A DNA stretch of 64,000 nt from Escherichia coli (GTDB lineage: Bacteria > Pseudomonadota > Gammaproteobacteria > Enterobacterales > Enterobacteriaceae). This document shows, one piece after another, positions 38,303 through 59,358 of this stretch. How positions within the stretch are numbered: the stretch's first letter is position 1; each line of letters begins with the position of its first letter. The stretch lies in assembly GCF_030013595.1 (NCBI RefSeq), contig NZ_CP122769.1; one strand, given 5' to 3'. A program made the position numbers and the translations under genes. The notes below the pieces were generated by a model. The model saw only the letters and a program-made list of their open reading frames with translations, was not told where the DNA came from and searched no databases.

Positions 38303-40272
<1,970 letters not shown>

Positions 40273-42655: not shown

Positions 42656-42682
42656 GATTAACTCTCCAGATTATGTGGAATC

Positions 42683-43078: not shown

Positions 43079-43117
43079 GGCTTTGCACCTGCTTTTAGGC
43101 AGTTTGGTTACTGGTTA

Positions 43118-43342: not shown

Positions 43343-43364
43343 GAACCGGTCCTTATTAAATTAT

Positions 43365-43386
43365 AAAAGCCACCCGAGAGTGGCCT
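43365..43386 (-). terminator. Stem-loop/terminator
   Basis: Minus strand GCCAC-TCTCGG-GTGGC followed by TTTTATAA, 10 nt after the stop at 43397. Confidence 0.45.
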
Positions 43387-43396
43387 GAGTTGAAAC

Positions 43397-43600
43397 TTAA
43401 ATCTGTGAAGTATTTTTGAGAGATTTTTTGCGATCCAGATGCCGGGCAACAATGGTTCCGATAACAAGTAGCATGATGACCGCACTGAAGAAGGTGCTGT
43501 CAGGGACGCCCTGGAAAAAATCACTGAAACTGTAAACAATAAAAATCAATGCGCAAAAATAGAAAACGATACGAACATAAGGGGTAAAAAACATTTTCAT
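43397..43600 (-). CDS. Small two-helix membrane protein
   Basis: 67-aa ORF; GGAAGG SD; two hydrophobic segments. Confidence 0.55.
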   Translation of the reverse strand: MKMFFTPYVRIVFYFCALIFIVYSFSDFFQGVPDSTFFSAVIMLLVIGTIVARHLDRKKSLKNTSQI

Positions 43601-43740
43601 CGGTTGCCTTCCATTCAGGGAGAATTCTCAGTAATTACATCACACCTGAAGAGAAACTATTTTCGTATAAATGAGCATTTTCGACATATCAGAGGGGGGG
43701 TTTACTCATAAATGAGGTAGTAAGGGTCACACTTGAGGTG

Positions 43741-43751
43741 AAAGTTACTTT
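43741..43751. repeat. Palindromic box, copy 15 (gAAAGTTACTTTcc)
   Basis: Read directly; intergenic. Confidence 0.8.
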
Positions 43752-43779
43752 CCTGGCTGCGAACGAACTATCTCAAATG

Positions 43780-44073
43780 TTAGAGGTGTGCGTTCGCCTT
43801 GAGAGCCTCATGCCCTGAGGAGCTCAACTTGAGCCGATAGTATAAACCTGGCTCCAGATGGCTTGCTGGCTGGCATAACTCCACGAGGCCGAGCCGGAAC
43901 AGGACCGGAGAGCTCCTGCACGTCACATCATCAGGATTCCCCATAAACGTACGCCGTTCTCTGGCCCGTCTGAAATTGCCAGAGATATCATAGACCGTGC
44001 CGGATGCCATCCGTCGTAACACGTAAATCTGTGCCATTGTAAGCTTCTGGGCGGAACTGCTTAAACCTGACAT
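43780..44073 (-). CDS. Hypothetical protein
   Basis: 97-aa ORF; GGAGGGGAAGG SD. Confidence 0.6.
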   Translation of the reverse strand: MSGLSSSAQKLTMAQIYVLRRMASGTVYDISGNFRRARERRTFMGNPDDVTCRSSPVLFRLGLVELCQPASHLEPGLYYRLKLSSSGHEALKANAHL

Positions 44074-44098
44074 ACCTTCCCCTCCTTATATAAAACAA

Positions 44099-44122
44099 TC
44101 CGCCAGCAGCTCGACTGGCGGA
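44099..44122 (-). terminator. Stem-loop/terminator
   Basis: TCCGCCAG-8 nt-CTGGCGGA followed on the minus strand by TTGTTTTAT. Confidence 0.5.
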
Positions 44123-44152
44123 CAATGTTTGACTGGCAACAGCAAGGACATA

Positions 44153-44644
44153 CTATTTAGTGACAAGTTTGATCTTGGTTTCACTCATTCGAAGTCGAAA
44201 CTCCTGAAAACCCTGCTCTACCGCTAACTCCAGCCACTCAACGGGAATGGTATAGCTACAATCAGACCCACCCAAAGCGGCATCACAAGCGTAATCCCAG
44301 TCCTCATCCAGTTTTGGATTCATCCCCTGGGCGTAAGCCACAGTATCGCGGGATGCGGGAGAGCCCTCAAGCTCAGCATTAGTGATCAGGTATACACCAT
44401 GACTGTGCGCGAGAAGCACTTTTGGCACCAGATGTGTGCTGGCAATTTTTGAGGATGAGGGAAAGAAAACCCTACCAGCTTTACGCGCCTCTTCTTCAGT
44501 CTGTCCCTCAGCGTTAAGGAGGGCTCCCCCCGGATAGCATGCCGGGTCATAGATCTGATCTGCGGTGACCGAAAACGTTTTTGCGGTGCGAATTTCTTCG
44601 ATCAGTTTATTAATATCCGCCATTTCAAATACGAGAGTGGTCAC
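44153..44644 (-). CDS. Hypothetical protein
   Basis: 163-aa ORF (GTG start); GGGAGAG SD; 4 nt after the upstream stop. Confidence 0.6.
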   Translation of the reverse strand: MTTLVFEMADINKLIEEIRTAKTFSVTADQIYDPACYPGGALLNAEGQTEEEARKAGRVFFPSSSKIASTHLVPKVLLAHSHGVYLITNAELEGSPASRDTVAYAQGMNPKLDEDWDYACDAALGGSDCSYTIPVEWLELAVEQGFQEFRLRMSETKIKLVTK

Positions 44645-44648
44645 AGGC

Positions 44649-44960
44649 TTACTCTCCCTCTTCAGTGGACAACATCAGATACTTTGTTGCCAGCAGAAGC
44701 TCTCCCACATCCTTGAGGGACAATTCAGCTTTGCCTTCTACGGCAAGCTGCAAGCGCTGTCGAATTGCATGAACAGAATCTGAAGATAAAGATGCCATTT
44801 TGCGCAAAACGGCATTAGCCTTTTCTACAGCAGGATACAGAATTTCTGAGTTGGTATTATCTTCGTCATTATCAAAGATAATTTCAGAATCCATATTGAT
44901 GTTATCTTCAAGCCAGCTTGAAAGCACTTCAAGTAATGACATCACCTTTTCAATTTGCAT
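44649..44960 (-). CDS. Hypothetical acidic protein
   Basis: ATG 44960 preceded by AGGAGG (track ORF begins at 44996). Confidence 0.6.
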   Translation of the reverse strand: MQIEKVMSLLEVLSSWLEDNINMDSEIIFDNDEDNTNSEILYPAVEKANAVLRKMASLSSDSVHAIRQRLQLAVEGKAELSLKDVGELLLATKYLMLSTEEGE

Positions 44961-44986
44961 ATCGCCTCCTCTGTTAATGTGAAACA

Positions 44987-45023
44987 AATATAACAAAGTG
45001 GCTTACCCGGCTAATAACCTGAG
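44987..45023 (-). promoter_or_regulatory. Conserved promoter module, copy 4
   Basis: Minus strand CTCAGGTTATTAGCC, 16 nt, TATATT. Confidence 0.6.
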
Positions 45024-45070
45024 CAGAAAGTTTTCGCACTTTGTTTGAAAACAACTTTTCTGCTCAGGTT
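45016..45070. repeat. Long imperfect inverted repeat overlapping the promoter box
   Basis: AACCTGAGCAGAAAGTTTTC .. GAAAACAACTTTTCTGCTCAGGTT; 14 perfect bp plus 5 more after a bulge. Confidence 0.7.
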
Positions 45071-45260
45071 AATGTTAAAGTCGCTGTGTAAAAGATAAAG
45101 GGCACTAAAGATGATTTAAGCATCAAACAGACTAAATCGGATTCCGTCTTTTATATCGCTTTTAAAATAGAATGAATGAAATATAAATTTAGCGTTTATG
45201 ATTGAACGCTGTAGAGGTTGATTTATCCAGTGATATTCAGTTTGGGGCCTTAAAAAGGTT

Positions 45261-45491
45261 TTATTTTGGATTCGAATTACAAAGGGAGCACCGACATTTT
45301 TCTGGGGGCTCCCGCAGAGAAAAAGCGGTGAGGCTATGAAGACGAAGAGGAGGTATTCGACGAAATACTGTATGGCCACAGGAGAGCTTCAGCACCCATA
45401 TCCTGCCGTCTCGCTCGCCTGTAATGATTTCAACATGTACAACGTCATACCACGTAGTTGTATTTCTCACTTTGTTTATGCTTCCTGACAC
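45261..45491 (-). CDS. Small Cys-containing protein (start uncertain: GTG 45491 or GTG 45470)
   Basis: 76-aa ORF with SCGH..CRCSLC; preferred over the overlapping AT-rich ORF 45116..45379. Confidence 0.45.
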   Translation of the reverse strand: MSGSINKVRNTTTWYDVVHVEIITGERDGRIWVLKLSCGHTVFRRIPPLRLHSLTAFSLREPPEKCRCSLCNSNPK

Positions 45492-45796
45492 CGTGTGAAC
45501 GCAATCTTCGTCTGGATGCGTTCATAGATGGAAAACTGCCTTTCAATGGAACCGGCATTAGACAGTAATTCATGAAGCTCAGCAGAGTCTGTATCGGGAA
45601 CGATAGCTACAGAAACTCCATATCTCCGTCCAATTTTGATTAGGTGCGCAAGCTGTTCTTTTTCGGATTCTGTGAGCATTGCCAGATCTCTTCCGGACAC
45701 CTGCTCTATAAACGAACCAAGGTTTTTGGGAAAAAAGGGTTCGGCATCAGAGTTATGTGCTGGGCGCGTCTGCGGCTTATCGAAGCTATTGGGCAT
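45476..45796 (-). CDS. Hypothetical protein
   Basis: 106-aa ORF. Confidence 0.55.
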   Translation of the reverse strand: MPNSFDKPQTRPAHNSDAEPFFPKNLGSFIEQVSGRDLAMLTESEKEQLAHLIKIGRRYGVSVAIVPDTDSAELHELLSNAGSIERQFSIYERIQTKIAFTRCQEA

Positions 45797-45947
45797 GAAT
45801 AGAACCTATACAGTTAGAGAACTGGAGAATGGATAAAGACTCTATGAAAATCAGTTGTGCTACACTCGAATGCTAATCAAGCTTTATGATGGCTTTAGTA
45901 GGGATGGCCGTCAACTTAAACCGATAAGAAGGGAGCCATTTATCGTT

Positions 45948-45958
45948 AAAGTAACTTT
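45948..45958. repeat. Palindromic box, copy 16 (ttAAAGTAACTTTcccgg)
   Basis: Read directly; intergenic. Confidence 0.8.
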
Positions 45959-45975
45959 CCCGGATGATGCTCTTT

Positions 45976-46203
45976 TTACGAAATAAGTTTCTCACACTCC
46001 TGTATAAGAGTCGCCCTGGAACGAGATCGACTGGCTTTGCTTAATGAAGAGCGTAGTTGATGTTCATCAACCCCATCAGCGATAAACTGACCGATTTTTG
46101 TTTCAAGCCGCTGCATTGCCTCGTAAAGCTTGGCATCCGCATTATTTTTAAGAAACCTCAGTATATAATCAGCAATAATTTGGACGGGAGTGAACTTATA
46201 CAT
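45976..46203 (-). CDS. Small hypothetical protein
   Basis: 75-aa ORF; AAGGAT SD. Confidence 0.55.
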   Translation of the reverse strand: MYKFTPVQIIADYILRFLKNNADAKLYEAMQRLETKIGQFIADGVDEHQLRSSLSKASRSRSRATLIQECEKLIS

Positions 46204-46263
46204 TATGTATCCTTAAGACGTTGTGTTAAATGATTCAAAAAAATTTATAACCAGACGTAAATT

Positions 46264-46302
46264 ATTATACATAAGTAAGCACTTTAGCTAACAAGCTGGA
46301 GG
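46264..46302 (-). promoter_or_regulatory. Conserved promoter module, copy 5 (variant)
   Basis: Minus strand CCAGCTTGTTAGCT, 16 nt, TATAAT. Confidence 0.5.
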
Positions 46303-46430
46303 AGTGAATTTCGGTTAGCAACTATATTTTAGAAGCTGATTGCTGAATAGACAAAGCCCGGCTTACCGGGCATTCATTTAATTAGATGCTAGAAATCTGA
46401 CCCGTCGTCTGACTTTTATTCCAGGCAGAG

Positions 46431-47042
46431 TTAGGAACTAATAATGATGGCCTGGTCAGTTTGAGGAAGCCGGTTTCCTCTGATAAATGCAGGGTGGTTT
46501 AAACGAGAAGAAGAAATGGTCATCGCCAGAAATGTCTCTTCACGCGAACGCAGAAATTCCCCCCATGAATAGGTTTCCCATACGTCGTGAGAAAGGTCGG
46601 ATTCCTTTATGTACCGGGATTGCATTGTTGGCTCAAAATCGACAGGGGCTAAACTGTCATAGGATGGATGAACACGGTACCCCAATCCCTCCTCCGTCTG
46701 ATGGTATGCATGTGCCAAAAGGACATCGTGGGAGACCAGGTCATAGTCGTTGTCCTGAACGAGCGTTTTTACGGTATGACTAATTTCCCCAAAGCCGTCT
46801 ATTTCCCAGAGCGTTATCATTGTGAACTCAGCTAAAGTTCGTGGGCTCTTTACCAGAAAGCCATTTAATGCTCGTCGCCCCTTCAGCATGCCAACGTGGT
46901 AGGTCTTGTTGGGATAGGGTTTCATTGCCACCAGCGAATCAGCTTTAAGCTCAAGTGACAATTCAGGGACAGACACGGACATGAGAGTACACTTGTTTTT
47001 CATATGGTGAAGAATACGTGGCACAAGATGCAGATACATCAT
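46431..47042 (-). CDS. Hypothetical protein
   Basis: 203-aa ORF; AAGGAG SD. Confidence 0.6.
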   Translation of the reverse strand: MMYLHLVPRILHHMKNKCTLMSVSVPELSLELKADSLVAMKPYPNKTYHVGMLKGRRALNGFLVKSPRTLAEFTMITLWEIDGFGEISHTVKTLVQDNDYDLVSHDVLLAHAYHQTEEGLGYRVHPSYDSLAPVDFEPTMQSRYIKESDLSHDVWETYSWGEFLRSREETFLAMTISSSRLNHPAFIRGNRLPQTDQAIIISS

Positions 47043-47153: not shown

Positions 47154-47720
47154 TTATTCGTTTTGTTTCTGTTCGTTATACTGCTCAAACCAGAAGACGA
47201 CCGGTTTTACTACAATATGAAGCAAACCAAAACGTTCTGCGGTACGGAAATTCACGCTATATGCGCGAGCCCGTTCAACCTGTTTGGTAATTTCATTTCT
47301 CATTCCTTCAACACTAAAAGCTCCTTTAAAAAGGTTGCAGGGAGCGCATGATGGAAATAAGTTTTCTATTGCATGCAGTTCAGGGTGCATAACCTTACCC
47401 GTACTTCGGGCAACATGAGTTACGCCGCTGCCGACCGGGGCTCTCACCAGTTCAAAGTCGCGTCGAACAGGCTCAACATGATCGGCATGCCACCCTTTTT
47501 CAGGAAGCTTGCAACCACAATAGGCACAACGCCCCCCAAATTTCATTCGCAGCTCAGCTCGCTGTATTTTAGAGATCTTATTTTTAGGTTTTGAGAACCT
47601 ACCATCAGGTGATTCCGCTTTGGATAACTTTGCTGAGGGCTCAGGTAACTCAACTAAATTCCCGTTGATATTTATCACCTTGACCATATCATTTTCCGCC
47701 TTTACTAATCTCACGGGCAC
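47154..47720 (-). CDS. HNH endonuclease
   Basis: 188-aa ORF (GTG start; ATG alternative at 47687); CAYCGC..WHADHVEPV..HAIENLFPSCAPCNLFK is a classic HNH zinc-finger nuclease motif. Confidence 0.75.
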   Translation of the reverse strand: MPVRLVKAENDMVKVININGNLVELPEPSAKLSKAESPDGRFSKPKNKISKIQRAELRMKFGGRCAYCGCKLPEKGWHADHVEPVRRDFELVRAPVGSGVTHVARSTGKVMHPELHAIENLFPSCAPCNLFKGAFSVEGMRNEITKQVERARAYSVNFRTAERFGLLHIVVKPVVFWFEQYNEQKQNE

Positions 47721-48795: not shown

Positions 48796-51180
48796 TTATA
48801 CGACCTGCCTGACCATCCTCATCAGAAGGCGGTTTAACAGTCCTTTCGCTGTCGGGCGATTGCTATCGACATAGTAAAAACCTGTTTTGGTCGTACCGTG
48901 AGCACTGCTCAGCACCCTCAGTTCCCAGATAACGTCACGGATAACGCCGCCATTTTCTGGCTTAAGGCATTCAGATAAATGGCGCATGAAACGAGCTCTT
49001 ACGGCACGGTAATAGCGGAACTCCTCTGGCTGGTTAGTATTTTCTTTCACCCGGAGTCGCTGGTTACACAGAGTTAGAACTGCATCCATCATTCCCGCCT
49101 TCAGCTTCGCCTGGATCGCACCTTGTTGCTGTTCCCTCTCACCTTCGAGTAACGTTAAGATTCTTTCTCCGAGTGCCGTCTTGTTGTGTACGTGCAACTG
49201 TACACAGGCAGCTACGCATGCCCAGAATCTGAACTTTTTTATCTGTCCACGCAATTTCCGGGCTACAACCTGACGGTATGCAGTATCGCTGAGTATTTTA
49301 AAACGCCGACTGGCAACCAGCTCTGGAAGCGACACTCTTTCGCCTATCCCCAGGCGGGAAAAGGTTTGTCCCCGTTGTGCGAGACGATGATAGACAGCGC
49401 CCTTCCCTTTTGAAATTCGGACCGCGCCATAACGAAGAAGATACTGAGCAGCAGTCGTTGGAGTAAACTCACCGTCAGCGATGCTCTGGCGTAACCCGTC
49501 GTATTCATGCCAGATAATCCAGGACGCCGTATCTTCTTCAACAGTCAGCTCATCCTCTTCCTCGAATGCCACGACGACAGAACTGCTCTCTCCGGTCTTT
49601 AGGCTACGTGAAGCCCTGGGGTCAGCCTGCCCGTCAAAATAGGTCATCAGCGGCAACGTATCAGTCAGTCCATCATAAGCTGTACCGAACCGGCCTCCGG
49701 GCAGTTTCATCCAGAGTGGAGCTGGCATTGGTGTACGGGCCACAGGCAGCATGTCAGGCTCATCCTCAAGAAGGTCCAGATCGGCCTCTTCCCAGACTCT
49801 GCGATAGATCTCAATTGCCCGAAACGGGCGAGGGTTGAAACAGTGCAACGACCAGAGGAAATCAACGTGGATCACGTTTGCTTCATGTACAAGCCGAAAT
49901 TGTGGCTCAGCCATACGACGGTTATAAGCCGTATCGTCCACCTCGCCGGAAAGTAGCTTTCTGCGATGCTTTGCCGCACGTCTGGCTTCAACATAATCAA
50001 GGCTGCAACAGACATGAAAAAGACGTTCAGTCAGGGACGAAGAAAAGATATTGGGTTGAAGACGCACATACCCGCCTTCGAACACTTTACGACCGATATA
50101 ATCCCGCAGGCTCCAGTCGTACTGGATCTTAGAAAGAAATCGCTGAAGACGACTTAGGCCTGCCTGATAACCATATTTCTCAGGGTCAGTGCGAAGGAGC
50201 GTTTCCATTGAATGGTCAACCCCTACGGCTGTGCAAAGCGAGCACCCATATCTAGCCCCACAAGCTGAGGTTCGCGTGGGTTTCTCCGGCGACCAGATAC
50301 ACTCTCCGGTGGCGTCTTTATAAAGCGTTGCCAGGCTGAAGTTATCCGGCATAAAGCTTGGTAAAGGGAAGCGGGATTCGGAACCACAGGCCATTAGAAA
50401 AGACCAGATGTCCTGAGTGCGCCACTCCTTTACTGGATAGAGTTCACCACCGTGCTCAGTCAGGGTTACTTTCCTCGCCTGCCCTCCCATTTTGAGGATA
50501 TTTCCGGCCCTTCGGGCACTTTCATCATCCCTGGAGCCCAGCATCAGGCATACCCTGCTTCGTACGGATGCCGGGGCGTTTTTTAGATAACGAGCTTTGG
50601 CCTTGCGCAGGGGGGCGATTTTGTAGTCGGTTGAGCACTGACGGGTTGAAGAATTAGTCCAGGTCGGAAGTCCACGTCCAGTCAGAATGCGGCCTACCCA
50701 GCTCTGCGTAAGAGACGGTTGGGCGACAAGGACTGTGACCGGTAGCTGGTGTTCAGCAATGAACATTCTAAGCTGGTTGAGAACCTGTGAAGCCTGATAG
50801 TGCATCTCAGGGTTTTCGATCAGCGTATCGGACATCTGAATGAAATGATGTTCGCTGATATTTGTGCCGTTACGTACTGCCCTGATCAATGCCATCAGAA
50901 ATAGGTGAAGAAGAGAATGGGAGTCTTTACCGCCACTGTATCCCACGCACATCGTCCATCCGTCCGTAATAGCCTGATAAATAGCAGATGTGGCTGACGT
51001 GACCAGAGAAGAAAGACTCACAGTCTCCTTTTCATCGGTATAGTTCAGATCGGCATCGGTTGTCAGGGTCTCCCAAACATCAGCCCATTTATCATGTTTC
51101 AAAATGGCAGCATTAGCCGCCTCAGGAAAAATAACTTCTGAGGGTAATTCAAGGAATGAGTCACTTTTTTCAATAAACAT
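48796..51180 (-). CDS. Large PP-loop ATPase of the PAPS-reductase/DndC-like family
   Basis: 794-aa ORF; PP-loop VGYSGGKDSHSL; RQCSTDYKIAPL, LGSRDDESARRA and ACGARYGCSLC parallel the DndC RWCT..KIxP, RxxES and FGCWxC blocks; about 400-aa unknown C-terminal extension. Confidence 0.7.
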   Translation of the reverse strand: MFIEKSDSFLELPSEVIFPEAANAAILKHDKWADVWETLTTDADLNYTDEKETVSLSSLVTSATSAIYQAITDGWTMCVGYSGGKDSHSLLHLFLMALIRAVRNGTNISEHHFIQMSDTLIENPEMHYQASQVLNQLRMFIAEHQLPVTVLVAQPSLTQSWVGRILTGRGLPTWTNSSTRQCSTDYKIAPLRKAKARYLKNAPASVRSRVCLMLGSRDDESARRAGNILKMGGQARKVTLTEHGGELYPVKEWRTQDIWSFLMACGSESRFPLPSFMPDNFSLATLYKDATGECIWSPEKPTRTSACGARYGCSLCTAVGVDHSMETLLRTDPEKYGYQAGLSRLQRFLSKIQYDWSLRDYIGRKVFEGGYVRLQPNIFSSSLTERLFHVCCSLDYVEARRAAKHRRKLLSGEVDDTAYNRRMAEPQFRLVHEANVIHVDFLWSLHCFNPRPFRAIEIYRRVWEEADLDLLEDEPDMLPVARTPMPAPLWMKLPGGRFGTAYDGLTDTLPLMTYFDGQADPRASRSLKTGESSSVVVAFEEEDELTVEEDTASWIIWHEYDGLRQSIADGEFTPTTAAQYLLRYGAVRISKGKGAVYHRLAQRGQTFSRLGIGERVSLPELVASRRFKILSDTAYRQVVARKLRGQIKKFRFWACVAACVQLHVHNKTALGERILTLLEGEREQQQGAIQAKLKAGMMDAVLTLCNQRLRVKENTNQPEEFRYYRAVRARFMRHLSECLKPENGGVIRDVIWELRVLSSAHGTTKTGFYYVDSNRPTAKGLLNRLLMRMVRQVV

Positions 51181-51352
51181 ATATTTTCCTGAACCACGGC
51201 ATATGCTGCATCACTGATATTTTTATTAGAACTTTAAAATAACTACAGCGCAACCATTTAGCGAAATTATATTAAATCAAAATCACGCAAATTTAATTCT
51301 TAAATAGATTTAAAATAAAAACCCATTGTAATTTAATCTCCCAGCACAGCTA

Positions 51353-51802
51353 TTAGATATAGGTTGGTGGTGTAATAAAAGCCGTGACATTTGTTTTCAA
51401 CTCAGACAGCGGAATTGAAGGAGTGTTAAGAGTCATGTCATCACCACAATGGCGTGGTAGAGCAGAAAGCTGAAATGAATCTTTCATCACCCTAATAACC
51501 GGGCATTCCGTACGTGCTGATGGCATTACTTCCCGCAGCATCGCTTCCTGCCTTGTGCTATCGCTATGCTTATATTCATCCTGGTCTGTTATTTCTTGAA
51601 TTTCATCTTCACCACAAAATGACCAGTTAGCGTCATAGAAGTAAAACTCAGTTAACTGAAGATCGTTTTTTTTCACGTATGTCGCCAATTTGCGGATACG
51701 CTGTTCAAGCATTGTATCTATCCGTAAGGAAACACTTTGCGGAACATCACTTGCAAAGTCATTGATGCAAACAACGGTAGATACTATGAATTTATTGGTC
51801 AT
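51353..51802 (-). CDS. Hypothetical protein
   Basis: 149-aa ORF; GGAG SD. Confidence 0.55.
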   Translation of the reverse strand: MTNKFIVSTVVCINDFASDVPQSVSLRIDTMLEQRIRKLATYVKKNDLQLTEFYFYDANWSFCGEDEIQEITDQDEYKHSDSTRQEAMLREVMPSARTECPVIRVMKDSFQLSALPRHCGDDMTLNTPSIPLSELKTNVTAFITPPTYI

Positions 51803-51853
51803 GGCAGGCTCCAGGCCACCGGGGGAACCGGTGGCTACGGTTATCAGGCAGGC

Positions 51854-52645
51854 TTATGCGCCGCAAAGGGTGTCAAGGGAAGGAAGAAGCTTGCTCAGCT
51901 TGTCGTAATCGAGCGGAGACAGTTCTGTAACGAGTTCGACCGAAAGACTGGTGTTGTCTTCTTCACTCAGAATATAGATTCCGTCTTCTGGCTCTTTTCC
52001 GGCACATGCCTTCAGTCGTCTGTTAACGACCTCCTGGGCTGAATCCGCTACGTCGCAGCTCAGGACATAGCTTGCCACATAGCTGCTCTCACCGTGGTAA
52101 TGCGTCACTTTACACAGAGCATACTGGATACCGGCTTTGTGAGCCTCATTCATGAGACGAGAAAACTGACAGCCATCCTGGTAATAGTGGGTATCCTTTG
52201 TGACCAGAATAGTCATACCCCCAAATTCATCTGTCCGGCTTTTACTGCATGTAAATGCAGCAGTAATTGTTACCATTTCCGGGAGGTCGAATACCGACAG
52301 CACGGCAGTTGTGAGGCAAATTGCATGGTCAAGATCAATAGTCTCTCCATGAAAAACTGACAGCCCACTGCTGTTAACTTCTGTTGCGAACGACAGTTCA
52401 TAATTACAGTCTGGGCAGGATGGTTGCCCAAAGCTCGGCTCTGAAGGGTCATACTCAGGGTGGTTCTCAATAATACTGAGAATCAGCTTCTCAGTCAGAG
52501 AACAATCTGCCAGTGGCTTATCAAGCAAACGCTCACCTTCTGCAATTTCTGCTTCGGTAACGAATGTGATTGCTTCTTGTGCCATTTTAGCCTGCTCCTG
52601 AGTGCAGGGAATAATAAACGACGCCAGAGTATAATTATCTGCCAC
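51854..52645 (-). CDS. Hypothetical protein
   Basis: 263-aa ORF (GTG start) with AAGGAG SD; conserved promoter module upstream. Confidence 0.6.
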   Translation of the reverse strand: MADNYTLASFIIPCTQEQAKMAQEAITFVTEAEIAEGERLLDKPLADCSLTEKLILSIIENHPEYDPSEPSFGQPSCPDCNYELSFATEVNSSGLSVFHGETIDLDHAICLTTAVLSVFDLPEMVTITAAFTCSKSRTDEFGGMTILVTKDTHYYQDGCQFSRLMNEAHKAGIQYALCKVTHYHGESSYVASYVLSCDVADSAQEVVNRRLKACAGKEPEDGIYILSEEDNTSLSVELVTELSPLDYDKLSKLLPSLDTLCGA

Positions 52646-52687
52646 AGTTGACTCCTTGATTATTTAATTAATGTATTTGATGAGAAG

Positions 52688-52726
52688 ATCATAACAAACA
52701 CACTACTACCAACTAATAACCTGAAG
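52688..52726 (-). promoter_or_regulatory. Conserved promoter module, copy 6
   Basis: Minus strand CTTCAGGTTATTAGTT, 17 nt, TATGAT. Confidence 0.55.
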
Positions 52727-52814
52727 TCGTTTTTTTAGAAAAAATATTAAGAAGAATATGAACACCACCTCATCTTAAATTAATATTGTTCAGGATTAAT
52801 ATTCATTTTTGCAA

Positions 52815-52840
52815 ATAAAAACCGCCAGACGGCGGCTTTT
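52815..52840 (-). terminator. Rho-independent terminator
   Basis: Minus strand AGCCGCC-GTCT-GGCGGT followed by TTTTTATTT, 30 nt after the stop at 52872. Confidence 0.6.
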
Positions 52841-52871
52841 ATAAAGAGGGAAATATCATTGGAAGCTGAAA

Positions 52872-53129
52872 TTACTTCACGGCAGGCCGACAAATTACGC
52901 GACTGCTGTGAGCTGAAGCGAAACTTGTAGAGGAAACTATAATCACCTTTTCTAAGTCGTCGGCACTGTCGGCAATATGATGCCGAAAAGCCTCCTCTGC
53001 ATCACCAGGGGAATCGGCTTCGACCGGGTAGGCCTGATCATCATCATCAAACATAATGCGCCCGGAAATGAGATAAAGTCGGCTCAAATCTGGCGTCGCT
53101 GCGCTCGTGCTTCGTTCGTTCAGATTCAT
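52872..53129 (-). CDS. Small acidic hypothetical protein
   Basis: 85-aa ORF; ACGGAGAA SD. Confidence 0.55.
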   Translation of the reverse strand: MNLNERSTSAATPDLSRLYLISGRIMFDDDDQAYPVEADSPGDAEEAFRHHIADSADDLEKVIIVSSTSFASAHSSRVICRPAVK

Positions 53130-53194
53130 TTTTTCTCCGTCTGTTGCTCGTAAAAAGAATGACGCCGGTTTAAAAGGCGTCGCCAGGGTTCAGG

Positions 53195-53521
53195 CTAAAA
53201 CGCAGGGTTGCCATCGAGGAAGCTCATTGGCTGGCCAATAGCGGATGCCACCCTGAGAATTTCACCTGGTGTGGCATAGCGCAGCATTTCTGAGCGTCCA
53301 AATTTCTGATACTCATCTACTGACATCTTTCTCCACTCGGGGTGAGGATCTTTTCCGCACAGTGACCAGTTGCTTTCAGAGGAATCACGACGGAGAACGT
53401 ACACATCAAGCGAGGCTGTAAGCCCGCTTCCATATCCCCGCTGCGCTACAATACGAACCTGAGAACCATCGTCGCGTTGCAACGTCTGGGTTAATTTCGT
53501 GATAGGATCCTGAGAATGCAT
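53195..53521 (-). CDS. Hypothetical protein
   Basis: 108-aa ORF; GAGGT SD. Confidence 0.6.
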   Translation of the reverse strand: MHSQDPITKLTQTLQRDDGSQVRIVAQRGYGSGLTASLDVYVLRRDSSESNWSLCGKDPHPEWRKMSVDEYQKFGRSEMLRYATPGEILRVASAIGQPMSFLDGNPAF

Positions 53522-53559
53522 GCCATTTACCTCGTTTTTAAAAGAATTACCGTAAGTAA

Positions 53560-53598
53560 ATGATACCGAATCGAGAATTCTGGCTAATAGGTCAGAAG
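53560..53598 (-). promoter_or_regulatory. Conserved promoter module, copy 7 (variant)
   Basis: Minus strand CTTCTGACCTATTAGCC, 16 nt, TATCAT. Confidence 0.5.
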
Positions 53599-53727
53599 AA
53601 AAAATATTGCATATTTTTGAAGTGTAGGATAATGATTAGAATAAAATGGCCTGAATAAATCGTTAGCTTTAACTCTGCTTATTTCAGAAAAACTCTGAAT
53701 TAGTAGTGATGGAAAACGACGCGGTGA

Positions 53728-53738
53728 AAAGTAACTTT
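53728..53738. repeat. Palindromic box, copy 18 (ggtgAAAAGTAACTTTTacacc)
   Basis: Read directly; 130 bp upstream of promoter module copy 7; flanks extend the palindrome (GGTG..CACC). Confidence 0.85.
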
Positions 53739-53762
53739 TACACCGCAATTCAGAAAAAAGTT

Positions 53763-54083
53763 TCAGTTAGTCACATTACGAATAACCCGGCTTACTTTCG
53801 CATGTGCGTTCCCCTGCATGTTAAAGTAAAGCCCTCCGGGCAGACTCGTCGCCCACTTAACGCCTCGCTCAGCCATACGCTTCGGTGTTTCCAGCCAACC
53901 ACGAGGAATATTGCCCGGAACGTTACCGATAACCCGTCAAATGCATGCTGCTACCCGGATGCCGCCGGGAATATCGCATTTGGATTCAACAATATGCATG
54001 ACCTCAGATAAAGCACCATGCCGCTGGACATGATCGCCAATGTGCAACTCGATAGGAGAAGCCATTTCTGAATCTGACTTCAT
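53763..54083 (-). pseudogene. Gene with in-frame TGA at codon 49 (48-aa product, or 106 aa if read through)
   Basis: ATG 54083 with AAAGGTGG SD; frame MKSDSEMASPIELHIGDHVQRHGALSEVMHIVESKCDIPGGIRVAACI-TGA-RVIGNVPGNIPRGWLETPKRMAERGVKWATSLPGGLYFNMQGNAHAKVSRVIRNVTN. Confidence 0.5.
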
Positions 54084-54363
54084 ATCTGTCCACCTTTAAT
54101 TTAGAAACCGTCTAAATTACCAAATTAGTTAATCCAACAACATCTGTATCACAACCATCAATTTGTTTTTGTTGGGTCTATATCGTAGAAACAAGTGAAT
54201 AATGAATACACTCGTTAATACAGACAACCGGAAATGAATGACTACCTGATTATCTCAGCGGTATATGCTAAGCCGTTAATATTGCCATTCTCTGGTGGAA
54301 CCACTGCTAAATGAATAAACCGTTTGTCGCTTCAAACCACTTTATCAAAACCGTTAACTTGCA

Positions 54364-55614
54364 TTAAGTCCGATACAGTTCGGCGAGCTCATCCAGCATG
54401 GGGTTACTCTTATATCCCGGTGCGGCCGTAAAAAGGTTTCGGGAAATCGCCAGCCACTCCATGATTTTGTCCGTCGCCAGCCAACGTCTGCCAAGTCGCT
54501 CGGCTGCGATGGGGACTTTATGCAAGCCAGCGAAGGGATCTACAACAAGATCTCCCGGCTCTGTCAAAAACTCAATCAGAAACGCTGCAAGCCTGGTAGG
54601 AGACGTTGCACCGTGCAGCGGAAAACCGAGCTCGCGGGCAATGGAATGGCAAAATCTCGTATCAGCGCAGCTATTGCCGTAAAACAAAGTATTCTTGGGG
54701 ATCGTTCCTTCTGTTTTATTTCCAAAGGAACCGCTTTTAAGCTGGTACGCCCCATCACCATAAAAGGTCGTGCGATTTTCACCGCCTGCTGCCTGCAATT
54801 TTAGATGCTGGTCTGAATGCGGTTGTAGTACACGTAAGTTGTTTGAACGAACCTTACTCGCATCATTGGTAAACCACAGCACAGGCTCATACGATGAGCA
54901 GAGCTGCACCCGTTGCTTACATGCCCAGTGCGTTGGCGATGGGGGCTTACTGCGATTCACCCACTGAAGCCTGTCCATGAGCTCAAGCCCCAGCTTGTCA
55001 CATAATGCCAGTGTCAGACGCTCCAGATACAGAGAACGTGAAGGCCTACCCCTATTAAAGCTATCTTGAGTGATATTCAATGCCACACTTGCGCCCGGTA
55101 CAAGCTGTTTCACGATCGGTTCGAGGATACGCAGAAGCCAGTCAATATAAGCCTGCTCGCCACGCCCCCCTCCGTGCCCGTAGTCTCTTGAATTTCGAAG
55201 GAGGTAAGGTGGCGAGGTCAGGCAAAGATGAATTTGCTCGGTGATATTGCTGAAGAAGGCATAGGCGTTTCCAAAAACCGATGCCCCAAGAGAAGTTGAG
55301 AAACCGACAACACAGAGCTTTTCCCATGACTCATGCAGGTTTGTTTTCGTCTTAGAGGCGTATCTCCAGACGCCCCGTTTTTCTGGAACGCGTTCGATGA
55401 CCCCGGCCTGACGGAGAGTCTGCTGAAACCAGCGAACCTTATGTTTGACGCCGCTGGTTCTGGTTTTATCTGACCCAAATTCTTTCAGTTCGTGCAATTC
55501 GGCATCCGACATGCCAGTTTTACGCTGCACTTCGCGATAAAGCTCGTCGTTGGTCAACGGCGATTCGGAGGCAGCGTAGATATGCGCAATTAAGTCCGTA
55601 TTAATCGTACTCAT
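54364..55614 (-). CDS. Orphan DNA methyltransferase (beta-class N4-C/N6-A, SPPY type) with extra N-terminal domain
   Basis: 416-aa ORF; catalytic motif IV CLTSPPYLL precedes SAM motif I VVDPFAGLH..ERLGRRWLATD (IV-before-I order). Confidence 0.75.
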   Translation of the reverse strand: MSTINTDLIAHIYAASESPLTNDELYREVQRKTGMSDAELHELKEFGSDKTRTSGVKHKVRWFQQTLRQAGVIERVPEKRGVWRYASKTKTNLHESWEKLCVVGFSTSLGASVFGNAYAFFSNITEQIHLCLTSPPYLLRNSRDYGHGGGRGEQAYIDWLLRILEPIVKQLVPGASVALNITQDSFNRGRPSRSLYLERLTLALCDKLGLELMDRLQWVNRSKPPSPTHWACKQRVQLCSSYEPVLWFTNDASKVRSNNLRVLQPHSDQHLKLQAAGGENRTTFYGDGAYQLKSGSFGNKTEGTIPKNTLFYGNSCADTRFCHSIARELGFPLHGATSPTRLAAFLIEFLTEPGDLVVDPFAGLHKVPIAAERLGRRWLATDKIMEWLAISRNLFTAAPGYKSNPMLDELAELYRT

Positions 55615-55782
55615 CAGCCATCCTAATGGGGATACAGTTATTATATCGGCCTGATGGTTGGAAGTGAGATTACTAAATCAGACCGATCTGGTTTGTTGAA
55701 GACTTTGCCAAATCATGCAGCACAGCTGGGCTTGCACAGAGCGAGCCGGGCTCCTTTAGCGGAGACACCTTCGCAAGTTGGA

Positions 55783-56391
55783 TTAATCAGCCTCAAGATT
55801 CTGGAACTCAATGAGCTTTTGCTCACACTCCTCCCTGCCCCACGATCCCTGCCAGTCACAGATGTCCCGGTACTTACTTTCCAGCTTATCCATCTGTGCG
55901 AGATTAGCTGTTGCGAAGTCTGTCCATATGTCATGCCAGCAAGCGTTGTACGTAACGCCAGCTGGTGGACAATACTCCATTGCATCAGCATTAATAATTT
56001 CAACGCGAAGATCGGTTGCAAACGAGGCTGCAACGAGGTTAATAACATCCTGTTCTTTTTCGATTACCGTGACATGGGTTACATCGTCTTTCTGAAGAAT
56101 GGCGTGGAGCACCATACCAAGACCAAGACCATTAATGAGCACCCGCCCGGTGGCTCGCTCTATAAAATCCTGGCAGGTTCGGATCTCCATCGGGGTATTG
56201 GACATCACCACATCCCAGCCGTTGGACAAGCGGCGATATCTACCGGGCGGGATAAACTCATCTGTATTACCAGTACACTCGGCACGAAGGGCGAGGGTCA
56301 GCGCCTTATCTGTGGTAATTTCGAAAGTGTCCAGTTTCCAAGTTCCGGACTTGCCGTCTTTAACGGGTAAATCAGAAAAGCAGCTCTTCAT
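55783..56391 (-). CDS. Class I SAM-dependent methyltransferase-fold protein
   Basis: ORF with VLINGLGLGMVLHAIL..VTVIEKEQDVI (GxGxG SAM loop plus acidic residue); start uncertain (ATG 56391 or TTG 56403). Confidence 0.6.
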   Translation of the reverse strand: MKSCFSDLPVKDGKSGTWKLDTFEITTDKALTLALRAECTGNTDEFIPPGRYRRLSNGWDVVMSNTPMEIRTCQDFIERATGRVLINGLGLGMVLHAILQKDDVTHVTVIEKEQDVINLVAASFATDLRVEIINADAMEYCPPAGVTYNACWHDIWTDFATANLAQMDKLESKYRDICDWQGSWGREECEQKLIEFQNLEAD

Positions 56392-57939: not shown

Positions 57940-57950
57940 AAAGTAACTTT
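57940..57950. repeat. Palindromic box, copy 19 (ggAAAAGTAACTTTTgtg)
   Basis: Read directly; 110 bp upstream of promoter module copy 8. Confidence 0.85.
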
Positions 57951-58176: not shown

Positions 58177-59358
58177 CTAAGACCAGCGGTAATACTTAAA
58201 GTAGTCCTCATTTACAGCCAAAAACTCCCTTAAACCGTTCATTAATCCCTTTTCAAACGCTGTAACGATAAACCGGTATCCGTCCAGTGTTTCAATGTAG
58301 TAGATCCCGCCCGGTGTTATTCCAACATGCAACACCTCGGCTGTCATCATAAACTGGCCTTCCGGAAAATCATGCGACAGGTATATAAAACCCGTCGTGG
58401 CCGGTGCGGGTGTGGCATTCACTAAGACACCGTTAAACTGCTGCCCGTGCCTCGCCGGTACAAGCTCACTTCCCCTGGTTGACTTATCGAGCAGCCCCTT
58501 AACATCTTTTTGCTCTTTAGATGAGGTATAGCCCCGCACATCACTCCCATCACCTGGGCGAGAGCCGGTGCCGACATGTGCAAGACGACGGTAAGCGCTG
58601 CGCATATTGATGTGGCAGGATGCCCCGGCTCTACCCTGAAGCCTTACGCCAAAATCTTCGCAAAGTAATAAAATCTGACGTAGCTGGTGTTCATACACGG
58701 ACGCAGAAAGTGAAAGGTTGAAACTGGAAAAGGTCAGTTCTAAAACCTTTTCCCGTTTGTCATTGAAATGTGCTTCCAGCCTGATGATTGGCTTTTCCGA
58801 CATTGCAAAAGCTTTGTCCGTTGCTCTGTACCGGCATTCATCTCCGAAACATTCTTCAACAACGCTGGCTATAACCGTGTCGTGATCGCCATCTTCCGGA
58901 GCTGGCACAAAGATTTCAAATTGTGCCGGTGTCTCCGGCTCCAGCAGAACGGGATATAAACGCGGAGAATTAAGCAATGCGCATTCAGAATTAATGAGCT
59001 TAACCCAGGCGCTTTTGTCGTCCGGATCCTTAAGCTGCTGTCCAAGGTTATCGCAAAAGTCTACTATCTGACGGGTATGCTCATCCGTGACTGCACAGAT
59101 CAGGTTAAGACCATGCGTGGCCATACTCAATTCCCGGGTTCGGGACTGGGAATTGATCGACCAGGGGTTAAGTGAAAGCGAAATAGGGCTTATGGAAGGG
59201 ACGACCGTCTCATTCTGCAAATCTGTAAGCTGGCAGTTCGCAGTAGGCTTCGGGGAAAGGGTACTAAATATGTAACTTGCCTGTTGTTTAGTACTGGCCT
59301 GGATATAAAACATCGCGTCCATGCTTGTATCCCGGGATGAAATTGAAAATAGCTTCAT
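58177..59358 (-). CDS. 393-aa protein of unknown function, translationally linked to the HigB-like toxin
   Basis: ATG 9 nt after the toxin stop (TAAGGTTAAAAATG); no HTH or other motif recognised. Confidence 0.6.
   Translation of the reverse strand: MKLFSISSRDTSMDAMFYIQASTKQQASYIFSTLSPKPTANCQLTDLQNETVVPSISPISLSLNPWSINSQSRTRELSMATHGLNLICAVTDEHTRQIVDFCDNLGQQLKDPDDKSAWVKLINSECALLNSPRLYPVLLEPETPAQFEIFVPAPEDGDHDTVIASVVEECFGDECRYRATDKAFAMSEKPIIRLEAHFNDKREKVLELTFSSFNLSLSASVYEHQLRQILLLCEDFGVRLQGRAGASCHINMRSAYRRLAHVGTGSRPGDGSDVRGYTSSKEQKDVKGLLDKSTRGSELVPARHGQQFNGVLVNATPAPATTGFIYLSHDFPEGQFMMTAEVLHVGITPGGIYYIETLDGYRFIVTAFEKGLMNGLREFLAVNEDYFKYYRWS

What the first reader, a model, noticed from the sequence alone, without database searches (positions are those of the whole stretch)
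48796..56391. Orphan DndC/PAPS-reductase-like giant protein near two methyltransferases: possible DNA-modification or anti-restriction cluster
The 794-aa protein has a PP-loop (SGGKDS) plus DndC-like blocks (RQCSTDYKIAPL, LGSRDDESARRA, ACGARYGCSLC). It also has a C-terminal extension of about 400 aa of unknown function. No dndA/B/D/E or restriction partners are visible.

Within 5 kb, in the same orientation, lie an orphan SPPY-type DNA methyltransferase with an extra N-terminal domain (54364..55614) and a small class I SAM methyltransferase-fold protein (55783..56391). Unknown genes surround all three.

PAPS-reductase-like proteins occur in phosphorothioation and in some BREX-type systems. Orphan methyltransferases on conjugative plasmids often protect incoming DNA. 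Whether these genes act together is inference.
Basis: partly seen in the sequence, partly recalled or inferred. Interest (0 to 1): 0.55.

Follow-up and report, generated by a model that had tools for sequence, protein, structure and literature searches.

The report
Stand-alone DndC-like enzyme on IncHI2 plasmid
A large resistance plasmid (IncHI2) carries a lone, well-conserved relative of the enzyme that puts sulfur into the DNA backbone, next to two orphan methyltransferases; its function is untested, and the three genes look like separate entries in a plasmid "establishment" gene array rather than one system.

Summary
The window is IncHI2 plasmid backbone, and all three ORFs and the quoted motifs are present.

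**The 794-aa protein.** It is a paralogue of the phosphorothioation enzyme DndC, not DndC itself.
- Its core (residues ~61-334) keeps the PP-loop and all five DndC cysteines. It scores 118 bits against the 290-bit cutoff of the DndC model.
- Residues 335-632 form a family-specific module with no known fold. A basic helical tail follows.
- This architecture has about 460 cluster representatives in 1.84 billion proteins.
- Full-length relatives lie mostly on conjugative plasmids (IncHI2, an IncHI1-like lineage, IncC and others).
- They always stand alone, without DndA/D/E and without any neighbour conserved across lineages.
- The gene is under strong purifying selection (dN/dS ~0.08). It is still dispensable: roughly a third of IncHI2 records have lost the catalytic half.

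**The methyltransferases.** The 416-aa protein is an orphan M.PvuII-like N4-cytosine methyltransferase with an Mrr_N domain. The 202-aa protein is a SAM-fold protein of unknown substrate. Linkage of either to the DndC-like gene holds only within IncHI plasmids.

**Verdict.** This is a new variant of a known kind. Most likely it is an ATP- and Fe-S-dependent nucleic-acid sulfur-modifying enzyme used for host-defence evasion. That role is inferred, not shown. A dedicated three-gene system is not supported.

The parts
48796..51180 (-). 794-aa stand-alone DndC-like protein (RefSeq WP_000469466.1, named 'phosphoadenosine phosphosulfate reductase family protein')
   Evidence: ORF; annotation; family matches; AF2 model with mean pLDDT 87.5.
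50179..51000 (-). Catalytic core, residues 61-334: PP-loop ATP-pyrophosphatase with the DndC-type cysteine set (C182, C294, C307, C313, C316)
   Evidence: 30% identity to Salmonella DndC. S82, G84, K85, D86, S87 and the five Cys are invariant in 46 homologues. Foldseek PDB hits are all PP-loop enzymes: FAD synthase PAPS domain, APS reductase, TtuA. dN/dS 0.05.
49285..50178 (-). Family-specific C-terminal module, residues 335-632, unknown fold
48799..49284 (-). Variable, strongly basic helical tail, residues 633-794
   Evidence: Helices in the AF2 model. In the homologues that have a long tail, pI is 8.9-10.8 and net charge +4 to +16 despite low sequence conservation. The tail is short or absent in the ~570-670-aa members.
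51353..51802 (-). 149-aa unknown protein directly upstream of the DndC-like gene; shared only with the IncHI1-like locus
   Evidence: No hit in Pfam, PADLOC, NCBIfam or PHROGs. 60% identical in the IncHI1-like locus L011.
51854..52645 (-). 263-aa unknown protein; shared only with the IncHI1-like locus
   Evidence: No family hits. 59% identical in L011. Not DndB-like.
53195..53521 (-). 108-aa unknown protein; a homologue sits directly upstream of the DndC-like gene in a Kluyvera plasmid lineage
   Evidence: 57% identity to L022:9504-9869. No family hit.
54364..55614 (-). 416-aa orphan beta-class DNA methyltransferase (SPPY motif, M.PvuII-like, probably m4C) with an N-terminal Mrr_N winged-helix domain
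   Evidence: Pfam N6_N4_Mtase plus Mrr_N. PDB 1boo M.PvuII, E 2.3e-39. Family found in 2251 plasmid records.
55783..56391 (-). 202-aa class I SAM-methyltransferase-fold protein, substrate unknown
   Evidence: phrog_15480, 3.5e-34. Weak SAM-binding-region matches. 1597 plasmid records.
48679..48689 (.). Copy of the IncHI palindrome AAAGTWACTTT, 107 nt after the DndC-like stop codon and upstream of the next gene
   Evidence: 17 copies in the window against 0.02 expected. Exactly conserved at the same place in the IncHI1-like locus.
53728..53738 (.). Copy of the same palindrome in the 842-bp gap between the methyltransferase and the 108-aa gene
57940..57950 (.). Copy of the same palindrome, upstream of the run of genes that ends with the two methyltransferases

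Best explanation
**What it is.** The 794-aa gene encodes a stand-alone member of a small sister family of DndC, carried mainly by mobile elements.
- It has a DndC-type PP-loop ATP-pyrophosphatase core with the cysteines that bind a [4Fe-4S] cluster and carry sulfur.
- That core is fused to a 300-aa module of unknown fold and a basic helical tail.
- It is a backbone gene of MOBH-type conjugative plasmids.
- It sits in a long same-strand array of small 'establishment' genes, together with an orphan M.PvuII-like m4C methyltransferase and a small SAM-fold protein.

**Most likely mechanism (inferred).**
- It uses ATP and sulfur supplied by a host cysteine desulfurase such as IscS.
- With these it thiolates a nucleic acid, most plausibly the phosphate backbone of plasmid DNA.
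- The C-terminal module and basic tail would replace the DNA-handling partners DndD and DndE.
- The benefit would be escape from phosphorothioate-dependent or other restriction in new hosts.

**Relation between the genes.** The methyltransferases are parallel, independent protective modules, not subunits of one system.

**Shown versus inferred.** Shown: identity, architecture, distribution, selection and lack of partners. Inferred: substrate, chemistry and benefit.
For: **Core homology.** 30% identity to canonical DndC, with every motif aligned. The PP-loop and five Cys are invariant across 46 homologues.

**Structure.** The confident model matches only PP-loop enzymes, including the Fe-S sulfurtransferase TtuA.

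**Selection.** dN/dS is 0.08 overall and 0.05-0.06 in the core and the module.

**Distribution.**
- 2658 plasmid records match at E<=1e-10, of which 2062 are conjugative and 1753 cover at least 80% of the protein.
- Only 8 phage-collection records match.
- Distant members sit next to type IV coupling proteins or in arrays of small genes.

**IncC context.** The IncC homologue is co-directional with, and about 15 kb downstream of, the hde operon. That operon's products act in the recipient against type I R-M and CRISPR. The array also holds dcm1, an N6_N4 methyltransferase-like gene and a ferredoxin.

**Precedent.** Moving a phage gene for a PAPS-domain/Dam fusion, together with one neighbouring gene, into a sensitive phage gave anti-Dnd activity.

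**Tail.** It is consistently basic in the homologues that have a long tail.

**No partners.** No DndB/D/E homologue in the window and no conserved neighbour across lineages.
Against: - No experiment on this family was found.
- The protein fails the DndC equivalog cutoff: 117.6 against 290.4 bits.
- Canonical phosphorothioation needs DndD and DndE, which are absent.
- The C-terminal module has no recognisable DNA-binding fold.
- In the IncC TnSeq, only the 4.7-kb hde region differed on entry into a restricting, CRISPR-positive V. cholerae. So the IncC homologue was not needed there, nor for transfer itself.
- About a third of IncHI2 records have lost the catalytic half and are still typed conjugative.
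- Whether the locus is in the first-transferred (leading) region is unknown. It lies about 31 kb beyond mobI, past the relaxase operon.
Confidence: 0.4

Rival explanations
1. Inhibitor or decoy. The protein blocks the recipient's Dnd/Ssp systems by competing for IscS/DndA or for DndD/DndE, or by occupying target DNA. It does not modify plasmid DNA itself.
For: It resembles DndC closely enough to plausibly dock on DndC's partners. The mechanism of the phage PAPS-domain anti-Dnd gene is not established. Other anti-Dnd proteins act by antagonism (title and abstract of PMC12345140, listed).
Against: A pure decoy would not need the catalytic residues. The PP-loop and all five cysteines are nevertheless invariant over very distant homologues, and dN/dS in the core is 0.05.
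Confidence: 0.15
2. RNA or small-molecule enzyme. It is a thiolase or adenylyltransferase acting on tRNA, rRNA or a metabolite, which reprogrammes the host after plasmid entry and has nothing to do with DNA modification.
For: The structural neighbours include the tRNA sulfurtransferase TtuA and FAD/FMN adenylyltransferases. No DNA-binding fold is recognisable. A small non-DNA-type SAM methyltransferase-fold gene lies nearby.
Against: The closest sequence family by far is DndC (4e-38 against 1e-3 for TtcA). In the IncHI and IncC lineages the gene lies in arrays that also hold DNA methyltransferases and, in IncC, recombination and primase genes.
Confidence: 0.15
3. Plasmid-borne defence. It is the modification half of a defence system (Dnd-, Ssp- or BREX-type-4-like) directed at phages or rival plasmids.
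For: PADLOC DndC and weak BrxP matches. An HNH endonuclease gene lies about 1 kb downstream.
Against: No restriction or sensor partner is conserved with it in any lineage. There is no DndB/D/E in the window, and no SspB/C-, PglZ- or BrxL-type product appears in the record's annotation of this region. The HNH is a phage-type HNH (phrog_2118) shared only with the IncHI1-like locus. The BrxP match is 23 bits over the PP-loop only.
Confidence: 0.1
4. Three-gene system. The DndC-like protein and the two methyltransferases act as one DNA-modification system.
For: Same strand, within 5 kb. Collinear in IncHI2 and, for the 416-aa methyltransferase, in the IncHI1-like locus. The shared palindrome lies upstream of each gene run. 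PAPS-domain/methyltransferase fusions exist.
Against: Linkage does not survive outside IncHI plasmids. The methyltransferase family appears to sit elsewhere in IncC-size plasmids, judged from different records. The catalytic half of the DndC-like gene is lost in many IncHI2 plasmids, while a 98%-identical full-length methyltransferase is present in Enterobacter IncHI2-size plasmids. Five other genes separate the two.
Confidence: 0.1

Closest known systems
DndC / DptC (TIGR03183), the sulfurtransferase of the DndABCDE phosphorothioation system
   Same: PP-loop SGGKDS. The RxC..K, LGSRxxES, GEC and CGxRxGCxxC motifs. All five cysteines. 30% identity over about 270 residues.
   Different: Scores far below the equivalog cutoff. 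The C-terminal 460 aa is unrelated to DndC's C-terminal half. No DndB/D/E homologue is in the window. Carried on plasmids as a single gene.
Phage PAPS-reductase-domain proteins, including the PAPS-Dam fusion linked to anti-Dnd activity in Vibrio crassostreae phages (Piel et al.; bioRxiv 10.1101/2021.05.05.442762)
   Same: A DndC/PAPS-type domain on a mobile element without Dnd partners, associated with DNA methyltransferases, and with a counter-defence role shown for the two-gene block that contains that phage protein. PADLOC model MTase_II PDLC03333 matches our core at 7.5e-23, at profile positions 35-301 of 544.
   Different: The phage proteins are shorter (479 aa). The PAPS domain there is fused to Dam. 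They lack the 335-632 module, which has no BFVD match. PHROG PAPS-reductase families match only weakly (3.5e-13).
SspD / BrxP, the PAPS-reductase components of SspABCD and type 4 BREX
   Same: PP-loop sulfur-transfer enzymes used for DNA phosphorothioation.
   Different: BrxP match of only 23 bits over the PP-loop. BrxP is reported to lack the DndC cysteine dyad and to be commonly fused to DUF4007 (PMC12839542). No SspB/C-, PglZ- or BrxL-type product is annotated in this region.
hde region of IncC plasmids and SXT/R391 elements (vcrx089-093; Roy et al. 2020, PMC7498323)
   Same: The IncC homologue of the 794-aa protein lies in the same co-directional gene array. This is the same kind of plasmid 'establishment' array, with methyltransferases and a DUF3085 gene as in the IncHI2 window.
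   Different: The hde functions that were shown are vcrx089-090 (anti type I R-M) and ssb/bet/exo (repair after CRISPR cutting). The DndC-like gene was not among the TnSeq hits. In IncHI2 the AAA-ATPase/DUF3150/VWA genes sit far away, at 40-45 kb of pSTM6-275.
M.PvuII (PDB 1boo), N4-cytosine DNA methyltransferase
   Same: The 416-aa protein aligns over residues 105-392 at E 2.3e-39 and has the SPPY catalytic motif.
   Different: Extra N-terminal Mrr_N domain. No PvuII-type endonuclease or C protein nearby. Target sequence unknown.

Membership tests
DndC (TIGR03183 equivalog) | Whole-protein score above the curated cutoff | tested here: not met
   117.6 bits against a cutoff of 290.4. PRK06850: 129.9 against 536.
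DndC (TIGR03183 equivalog) | PP-loop ATP-pyrophosphatase motif SGGxDS | tested here: met
   SGGKDS at residues 82-87, invariant in 46 homologues.
DndC (TIGR03183 equivalog) | Cysteines for the [4Fe-4S] cluster and the DndC-specific cysteine dyad | tested here: met
   C182, C294, C307, C313 and C316 are invariant and align with the cysteines of Salmonella DndC. Cluster binding itself was not tested.
DndC (TIGR03183 equivalog) | Encoded with dndD and dndE (and usually dndB, dndA) | tested here: not met
   tblastn of Salmonella DndB, DndD and DndE against the window gives no hit at E<=1; DndA was not queried. No such neighbour in 15 lineages. The one exception is a DndB-domain gene two genes upstream in the 669-aa lineage.
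DndC (TIGR03183 equivalog) | Phosphorothioate modification of DNA | not testable with these tools
   Needs LC-MS/MS or iodine-cleavage sequencing.
Assimilatory PAPS/APS reductase (CysH, PF01507) | Pfam domain plus the C-terminal catalytic ECGLH-type cysteine, in a sulfate-assimilation context | tested here: not met
   The Pfam match only just passes (25.8 against 22.5 bits). The sequence is far closer to DndC. The context is a plasmid gene array with no cys genes. The ECGLH motif is recalled from memory and is not in the translation.
BrxP (type 4 BREX) / SspD | Strong profile match and co-location with PglZ/BrxC/BrxL or SspB/SspC | tested here: not met
   BrxP 23 bits. No SspD model among the matches. 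No such neighbours are annotated.
IbrA-like PAPS reductase with DUF3440, paired with a ParB-like IbrB | DUF3440 C-terminal domain and an adjacent ParB-like gene (definition recalled from memory) | tested here: not met
   Pfam finds only PAPS_reduct at E<=0.01. No ParB-like gene is annotated next to it in the IncHI2 record.
Beta-class N4/N6 DNA methyltransferase (PF01555), for the 416-aa protein | Pfam domain above cutoff, SPPY motif IV before the C-terminal SAM-binding motif I | tested here: met
   78.5 bits against a cutoff of 26.7. SPPY and ...VVDPFAGLHK... are in the translation. M.PvuII at 2.3e-39.
Type II restriction-modification system, for the 416-aa protein | A cognate endonuclease gene adjacent | tested here: not met
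   The flanking genes are the 202-aa SAM-fold protein and a 48-aa ORF. None has a nuclease match.
Plasmid leading-region anti-defence island (Samuel et al. 2024) | Location in the first-transferred DNA next to oriT, with genes read from the transferred strand | tested here: inconclusive
   The locus lies about 31 kb from mobI, on the far side of the relaxase/traD operon, with genes pointing back toward it. The nick site and transfer direction of IncHI plasmids could not be established here. In that paper's main text 'MOBH' occurs only in the reference list and 'IncHI' not at all.

The most novel reading that the evidence does not exclude
This family is a single-polypeptide DNA phosphorothioation enzyme, or the maker of another sulfur-based nucleic-acid mark. 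Its own C-terminal module and basic tail replace DndD/DndE. Broad-host-range resistance plasmids (IncHI, IncC and relatives) would use it to pre-mark their DNA and pass phosphorothioate-sensing restriction systems. That would be a new class of plasmid anti-defence enzyme and a minimal phosphorothioation machine.
Probability: 0.2. Interest if true: 0.75.

Novelty: new variant of a known kind. Interest (0 to 1): 0.5.

Why it matters
IncHI2 and IncC plasmids are major carriers of antibiotic-resistance genes in Salmonella, E. coli, Enterobacter and Klebsiella. What lets them establish in many hosts is only partly known.

This gene is a conserved, strongly constrained backbone gene. Relatives are found in about 2,600 sequenced plasmids, and no study of it was found in the searchable literature.

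If it modifies DNA on its own, it would be the smallest known phosphorothioation-type machine and a new route of restriction evasion. If it does not, it is still a clear case of a defence-system enzyme domesticated by mobile elements with a new, structurally unassigned domain.

Tried and rejected
**Partner search.** All-against-all BLAST of ORFs within 10 kb in 15 lineages found nothing shared beyond close relatives. Pfam on neighbours in the Kluyvera lineage gave DnaB, a ParB-HTH protein and an AAA ATPase, but no Dnd partner.

**DndB lead.** A DndB-domain gene is close by in one lineage. The 355-aa Aeromonas neighbour and the IncHI2 263-aa protein are unrelated to it.

**Fold of the C-terminal module.**
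- BFVD: nothing.
- afdb50 was not available.
- hhalign against canonical DndC: nothing.

**Whole-protein searches.** The PDB sequence search found only the PP-loop region of FAD synthase.

**Literature.** Searches on IncHI2+DndC, DndC-like+plasmid, PAPS reductase+IncC/R478, orphan dndC and IncHI1/R27 gave no paper on this gene.

**Leading region.** The idea could not be settled.

**'Flavin reductase' at 58177-59358.** This RefSeq name was considered as a possible electron donor. No Pfam or NCBIfam match supports the name, so it was dropped.

**RNA genes.** Rfam and tRNA scans found only sok.

Full report
**Where the window comes from.** The 7.6-kb stretch matches 1020 plasmid records, 929 of them over at least 80% of its length. 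They come mostly from Escherichia, Salmonella and Enterobacter, and 918 are typed conjugative. A representative, pSTM6-275 (NZ_CP019647), is typed IncHI2A, MOBH relaxase, MPF_F. The window also contains the Tra1 transfer region: mobI at about 15.6 kb, the MobH relaxase at 16830-19982 and traD at 19982-22066. The finding lies in a long run of minus-strand, mostly unannotated small genes between about 26 kb and 62 kb.

**Observation check.** The three ORFs and all quoted motifs are present and coincide with RefSeq CDSs.
- The 794-aa protein matches Pfam PAPS_reduct only marginally (25.8 bits). It matches PADLOC DndC models at 4e-38.
- It aligns with canonical Salmonella DndC at 30% identity over residues 62-331, with every landmark motif in register.
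- tblastn of Salmonella DndB, DndD and DndE against the whole window finds nothing at E<=1. DndA was not queried.
The only correction is that the unexplained C-terminal part is about 460 aa, not 400.

**Anatomy of the 794-aa protein.**
- An alignment of 46 homologues, down to 25% identity, shows these residues invariant: S82, G84, K85, D86, S87 (PP-loop), C182, C294, C307, C313 and C316. R359, D395, E398, F428, W443 and R603 in the C-terminal part are also invariant.
- The AlphaFold model is confident (mean pLDDT 87.5).
- Foldseek against the PDB returns only PP-loop enzymes. These are the FAD synthase PAPS domain, APS reductase, FMN adenylyltransferase and the Fe-S tRNA sulfurtransferase TtuA. 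All matches cover only the N-terminal domain.
- These residues show no profile similarity to the C-terminal half of canonical DndC (hhalign probability 0.65%).
- Residues 633-794 form long helices. They are poorly conserved in sequence, but in the homologues that have a long tail they are basic (pI 8.9-10.8, net charge +4 to +16). The first 60 residues are acidic and disordered.

**How big and where the family is.**
- A profile of the 335-632 module finds 463 representatives (50% clusters) in 1.84 billion proteins. In the 150 listed it mostly starts after a 270-410-aa N-terminal part; the rest are short or truncated proteins. Typical total length is 560-850 aa.
- So this is a small, distinct architecture and not a generic DndC.
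- In PLSDB, 2658 records have a match to the protein at E<=1e-10, 2062 of them typed conjugative. 1753 cover at least 80% of it.
- About 990 are IncHI2-type (at least 95% identity). 268 fall at 60-80% identity; the sampled ones are 190-250-kb E. coli/Salmonella plasmids at ~75%, which I take to be IncHI1-like from size and host, not from replicon typing. The rest include the IncC plasmid pVPS114 (47%), Aeromonas, Providencia, Shewanella and Pseudomonas megaplasmids.
- The weakest matches, for example in Bacillus plasmids, cover only the PP-loop core. They may belong to other PAPS-reductase families.
- Only 8 records in the phage collection match. The one strong match (47% identity, 91% coverage, a 128-kb Salmonella record) looks like a misfiled IncC-type plasmid, judged from size and identity alone.

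**Context across lineages.**
- In every lineage examined the gene is alone among same-strand small genes, often close to transfer or partition genes.
- An all-against-all comparison of ORFs within 10 kb in 15 lineages found no neighbour family shared beyond close relatives.
- The only Dnd-related neighbour is a DndB-domain gene two genes upstream in the 669-aa lineage.

**Functional state.** Against the IncHI1-like homologue, dN/dS is 0.08 overall, 0.05 in the core and 0.06 in the module. dS is near saturation, so these are rough values. Yet the gene is dispensable.
- In Enterobacter/Klebsiella IncHI2 plasmids, only codons 312-794 remain. The N-terminal half is replaced by P-loop NTPase genes and an IS3 element.
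- From the evenly spaced rows, this applies to roughly 300 of about 1000 IncHI2-type records.
- Other plasmids carry IS21 or IS5 insertions somewhere in the 7.6-kb stretch.

**The methyltransferases.**
- The 416-aa protein has an Mrr_N winged-helix domain (residues 17-84) and a beta-class N6_N4 methyltransferase domain.
- Its best solved relative is M.PvuII, an N4-cytosine enzyme (E 2.3e-39). From general knowledge, SPPY/SPPF is typical of m4C enzymes. So m4C is likely, but the target sequence is unknown. No endonuclease gene is adjacent.
- This family occurs in 2251 plasmid records at E<=1e-20. They include IncHI2, the IncHI1-like locus (86%), large Klebsiella plasmids (about 51%), IncC-size plasmids (50%) and Pseudomonas megaplasmids.
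- In three of the 50%-identity records (H100-H102) it lies near 27-28 kb, whereas in the IncC plasmid pVPS114 the DndC-like gene lies near 76-79 kb. These are different records, so the separation is suggested rather than shown.
- The 202-aa protein matches a PHROG 'methyltransferase' family (3.5e-34). It has a class I SAM-binding region with only weak spermidine-synthase/KsgA-like matches.
- It is found in IncHI2-type plasmids, in an IncHI1-size plasmid (71%, about 3 kb from that plasmid's DndC-like gene) and in large Klebsiella plasmids. It had no match in the IncHI1-like locus L011.

**Do the genes act together?**
- Within IncHI plasmids the order is conserved: methyltransferase, then the 263-aa and 149-aa unknowns, the DndC-like gene, HNH and DUF6012.
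- Outside IncHI plasmids the linkage disappears.
- What recurs is the type of neighbourhood. In the IncC plasmid pVPS114 the homologue lies in a co-directional array. The array starts with an AAA ATPase (vcrx089 type), ssb, bet and exo. It continues through DUF3150/VWA genes, an N6_N4 methyltransferase-like gene, a YfaE-like ferredoxin and dcm1, then the DndC-like gene, an HD phosphohydrolase and, in related IncC loci, a primase.
- Roy et al. showed that vcrx089-090 counter type I restriction when expressed in the recipient, and that ssb/bet/exo repair CRISPR-Cas breaks (PMC7498323).
- In their TnSeq, only that 4.7-kb hde region differed between permissive and restrictive recipients. So the IncC DndC-like gene is not needed for transfer or for evading those particular defences.
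- A DndC/PAPS-type domain has been tied to counter-defence before. Moving a phage gene for a PAPS-domain/Dam fusion, together with one neighbouring gene, into a sensitive phage let it infect a Dnd-carrying Vibrio host.
- A 2026 survey also notes PAPS reductases in anti-CRISPR-associated operons.
- I conclude that the genes are independent modules in an establishment or defence-evasion array, not one system.

**Most likely mechanism.**
- Shown: a constrained DndC-type catalytic core with the Fe-S and sulfur-relay cysteines, a new C-terminal module, a basic tail, mobile-element residence, and no partners.
- Inferred: the enzyme adenylates or thiolates a nucleic acid using host IscS-derived sulfur. 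The substrate is most plausibly plasmid DNA, and the C-terminal parts would stand in for DndD/DndE. This would help the plasmid pass phosphorothioate-dependent or other restriction.
- I put this at about 0.4.
Conservation of catalytic residues argues against a pure decoy. The absence of any restriction partner argues against a defence system.

**Comparison with known families.**
- It works like DndC in its core but is not a member. It fails the TIGR03183 cutoff (117.6 against 290.4 bits), lacks the operon partners and has an unrelated C-terminal half.
- It is not CysH, BrxP, SspD or IbrA-like.
- I found no paper on this plasmid family in the searchable library. RefSeq simply names it 'phosphoadenosine phosphosulfate reductase family protein'.
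- I rate it a new variant of a known kind, with interest 0.5. It is widespread on clinically important plasmids and has a testable, possibly new anti-defence chemistry, but no functional evidence yet. The clustering idea that made it look like a system does not hold.

**Noticed on the way.**
- The 11-bp palindrome AAAGTWACTTT occurs 17 times in the window against 0.02 expected. Details are in the noticed-in-passing list.
- Three copies bracket the gene runs that hold the methyltransferases and the DndC-like gene.
- This suggests a common regulator for the whole array. It would mean co-regulation, not joint function.

Noticed in passing
window 485, 2950, 5043, 11955, 15015, 15410, 20271, 22001, 26903, 34492, 34618, 43741, 45948, 48679, 53728, 57940, 63143 (11 nt each): The perfect palindrome AAAGTWACTTT occurs 17 times against 0.02 expected. 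By my reading of the pSTM6-275 annotation, most copies fall between genes. Two lie in the mobI-proximal intergenic region where I expect oriT. There are 13 more copies in the first 50 kb of pSTM6-275. It is present in the IncHI1-like and Buttiauxella loci and absent from the IncC loci. GAAAAGTAACTTT is exactly conserved about 110 nt after the DndC-like stop codon in both IncHI2 and the IncHI1-like locus, while the flanking DNA has diverged. It looks like the operator of an unidentified IncHI-wide DNA-binding protein. No paper containing the sequence was found.
   Followed up: partly
window 42707, 45011, 52713, 57818, 60238 (and weaker copies at 32331, 51492, 57356): The repeated motif CTAATAACCTG (CAGGTTATTAG on the gene strand) occurs 8 times with at most 1 mismatch, against 0.9 expected. 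It is embedded in a 26-33-nt repeat. It lies about 15-70 nt upstream of the start codons of several minus-strand genes, including the 263-aa gene that heads the run ending in the DndC-like gene. This may be a reused promoter or 5' leader cassette.
   Followed up: partly
L031 (NZ_CP085778.1, Enterobacter IncHI2), locus 830-7452: In this IncHI2 lineage the catalytic N-terminal half of the DndC-like gene is replaced by two P-loop NTPase-fold genes (one of 904 aa) and an IS3 transposase. A 470-aa remnant ORF is left. The inserted NTPase genes could themselves be a defence module. They were not examined.
   Followed up: no
window 47154-47720 (-) and 46431-47042 (-): An HNH endonuclease closely matching a phage HNH family (phrog_2118, 1.7e-55) has weak PtuB/retron-HNH similarity. 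A DUF6012 protein follows it. Both are conserved with the IncHI1-like locus, just downstream of the DndC-like gene.
   Followed up: partly
window 27289-29705 and 38303-40272: The ORF patterns look like insertion sequences inside the small-gene array. One is a three-ORF IS66-like unit. The other is a two-ORF IS3-like unit next to hok/sok (sok RNA at 40510-40668). They were judged from ORF layout and from the IS genes at the corresponding place in pSTM6-275. They were not confirmed by family search.
   Followed up: no
pSTM6-275 (L032) 40638-46921: IncHI2 carries AAA ATPase, DUF3150, VWA and toprim genes that resemble by annotation the vcrx089/cobT-like part of the IncC hde region. They lie next to Tra2, far from the DndC-like locus. 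They are candidates for an IncHI2 anti-restriction module equivalent to vcrx089-090.
   Followed up: no
window 58177-59358 (-): A 393-aa ORF overlaps the RefSeq CDS named 'flavin reductase' in pSTM6-275. It has no Pfam, NCBIfam, PADLOC or PHROG match here. The name seems unsupported. The protein is 61% conserved in the IncHI1-like locus.
   Followed up: partly
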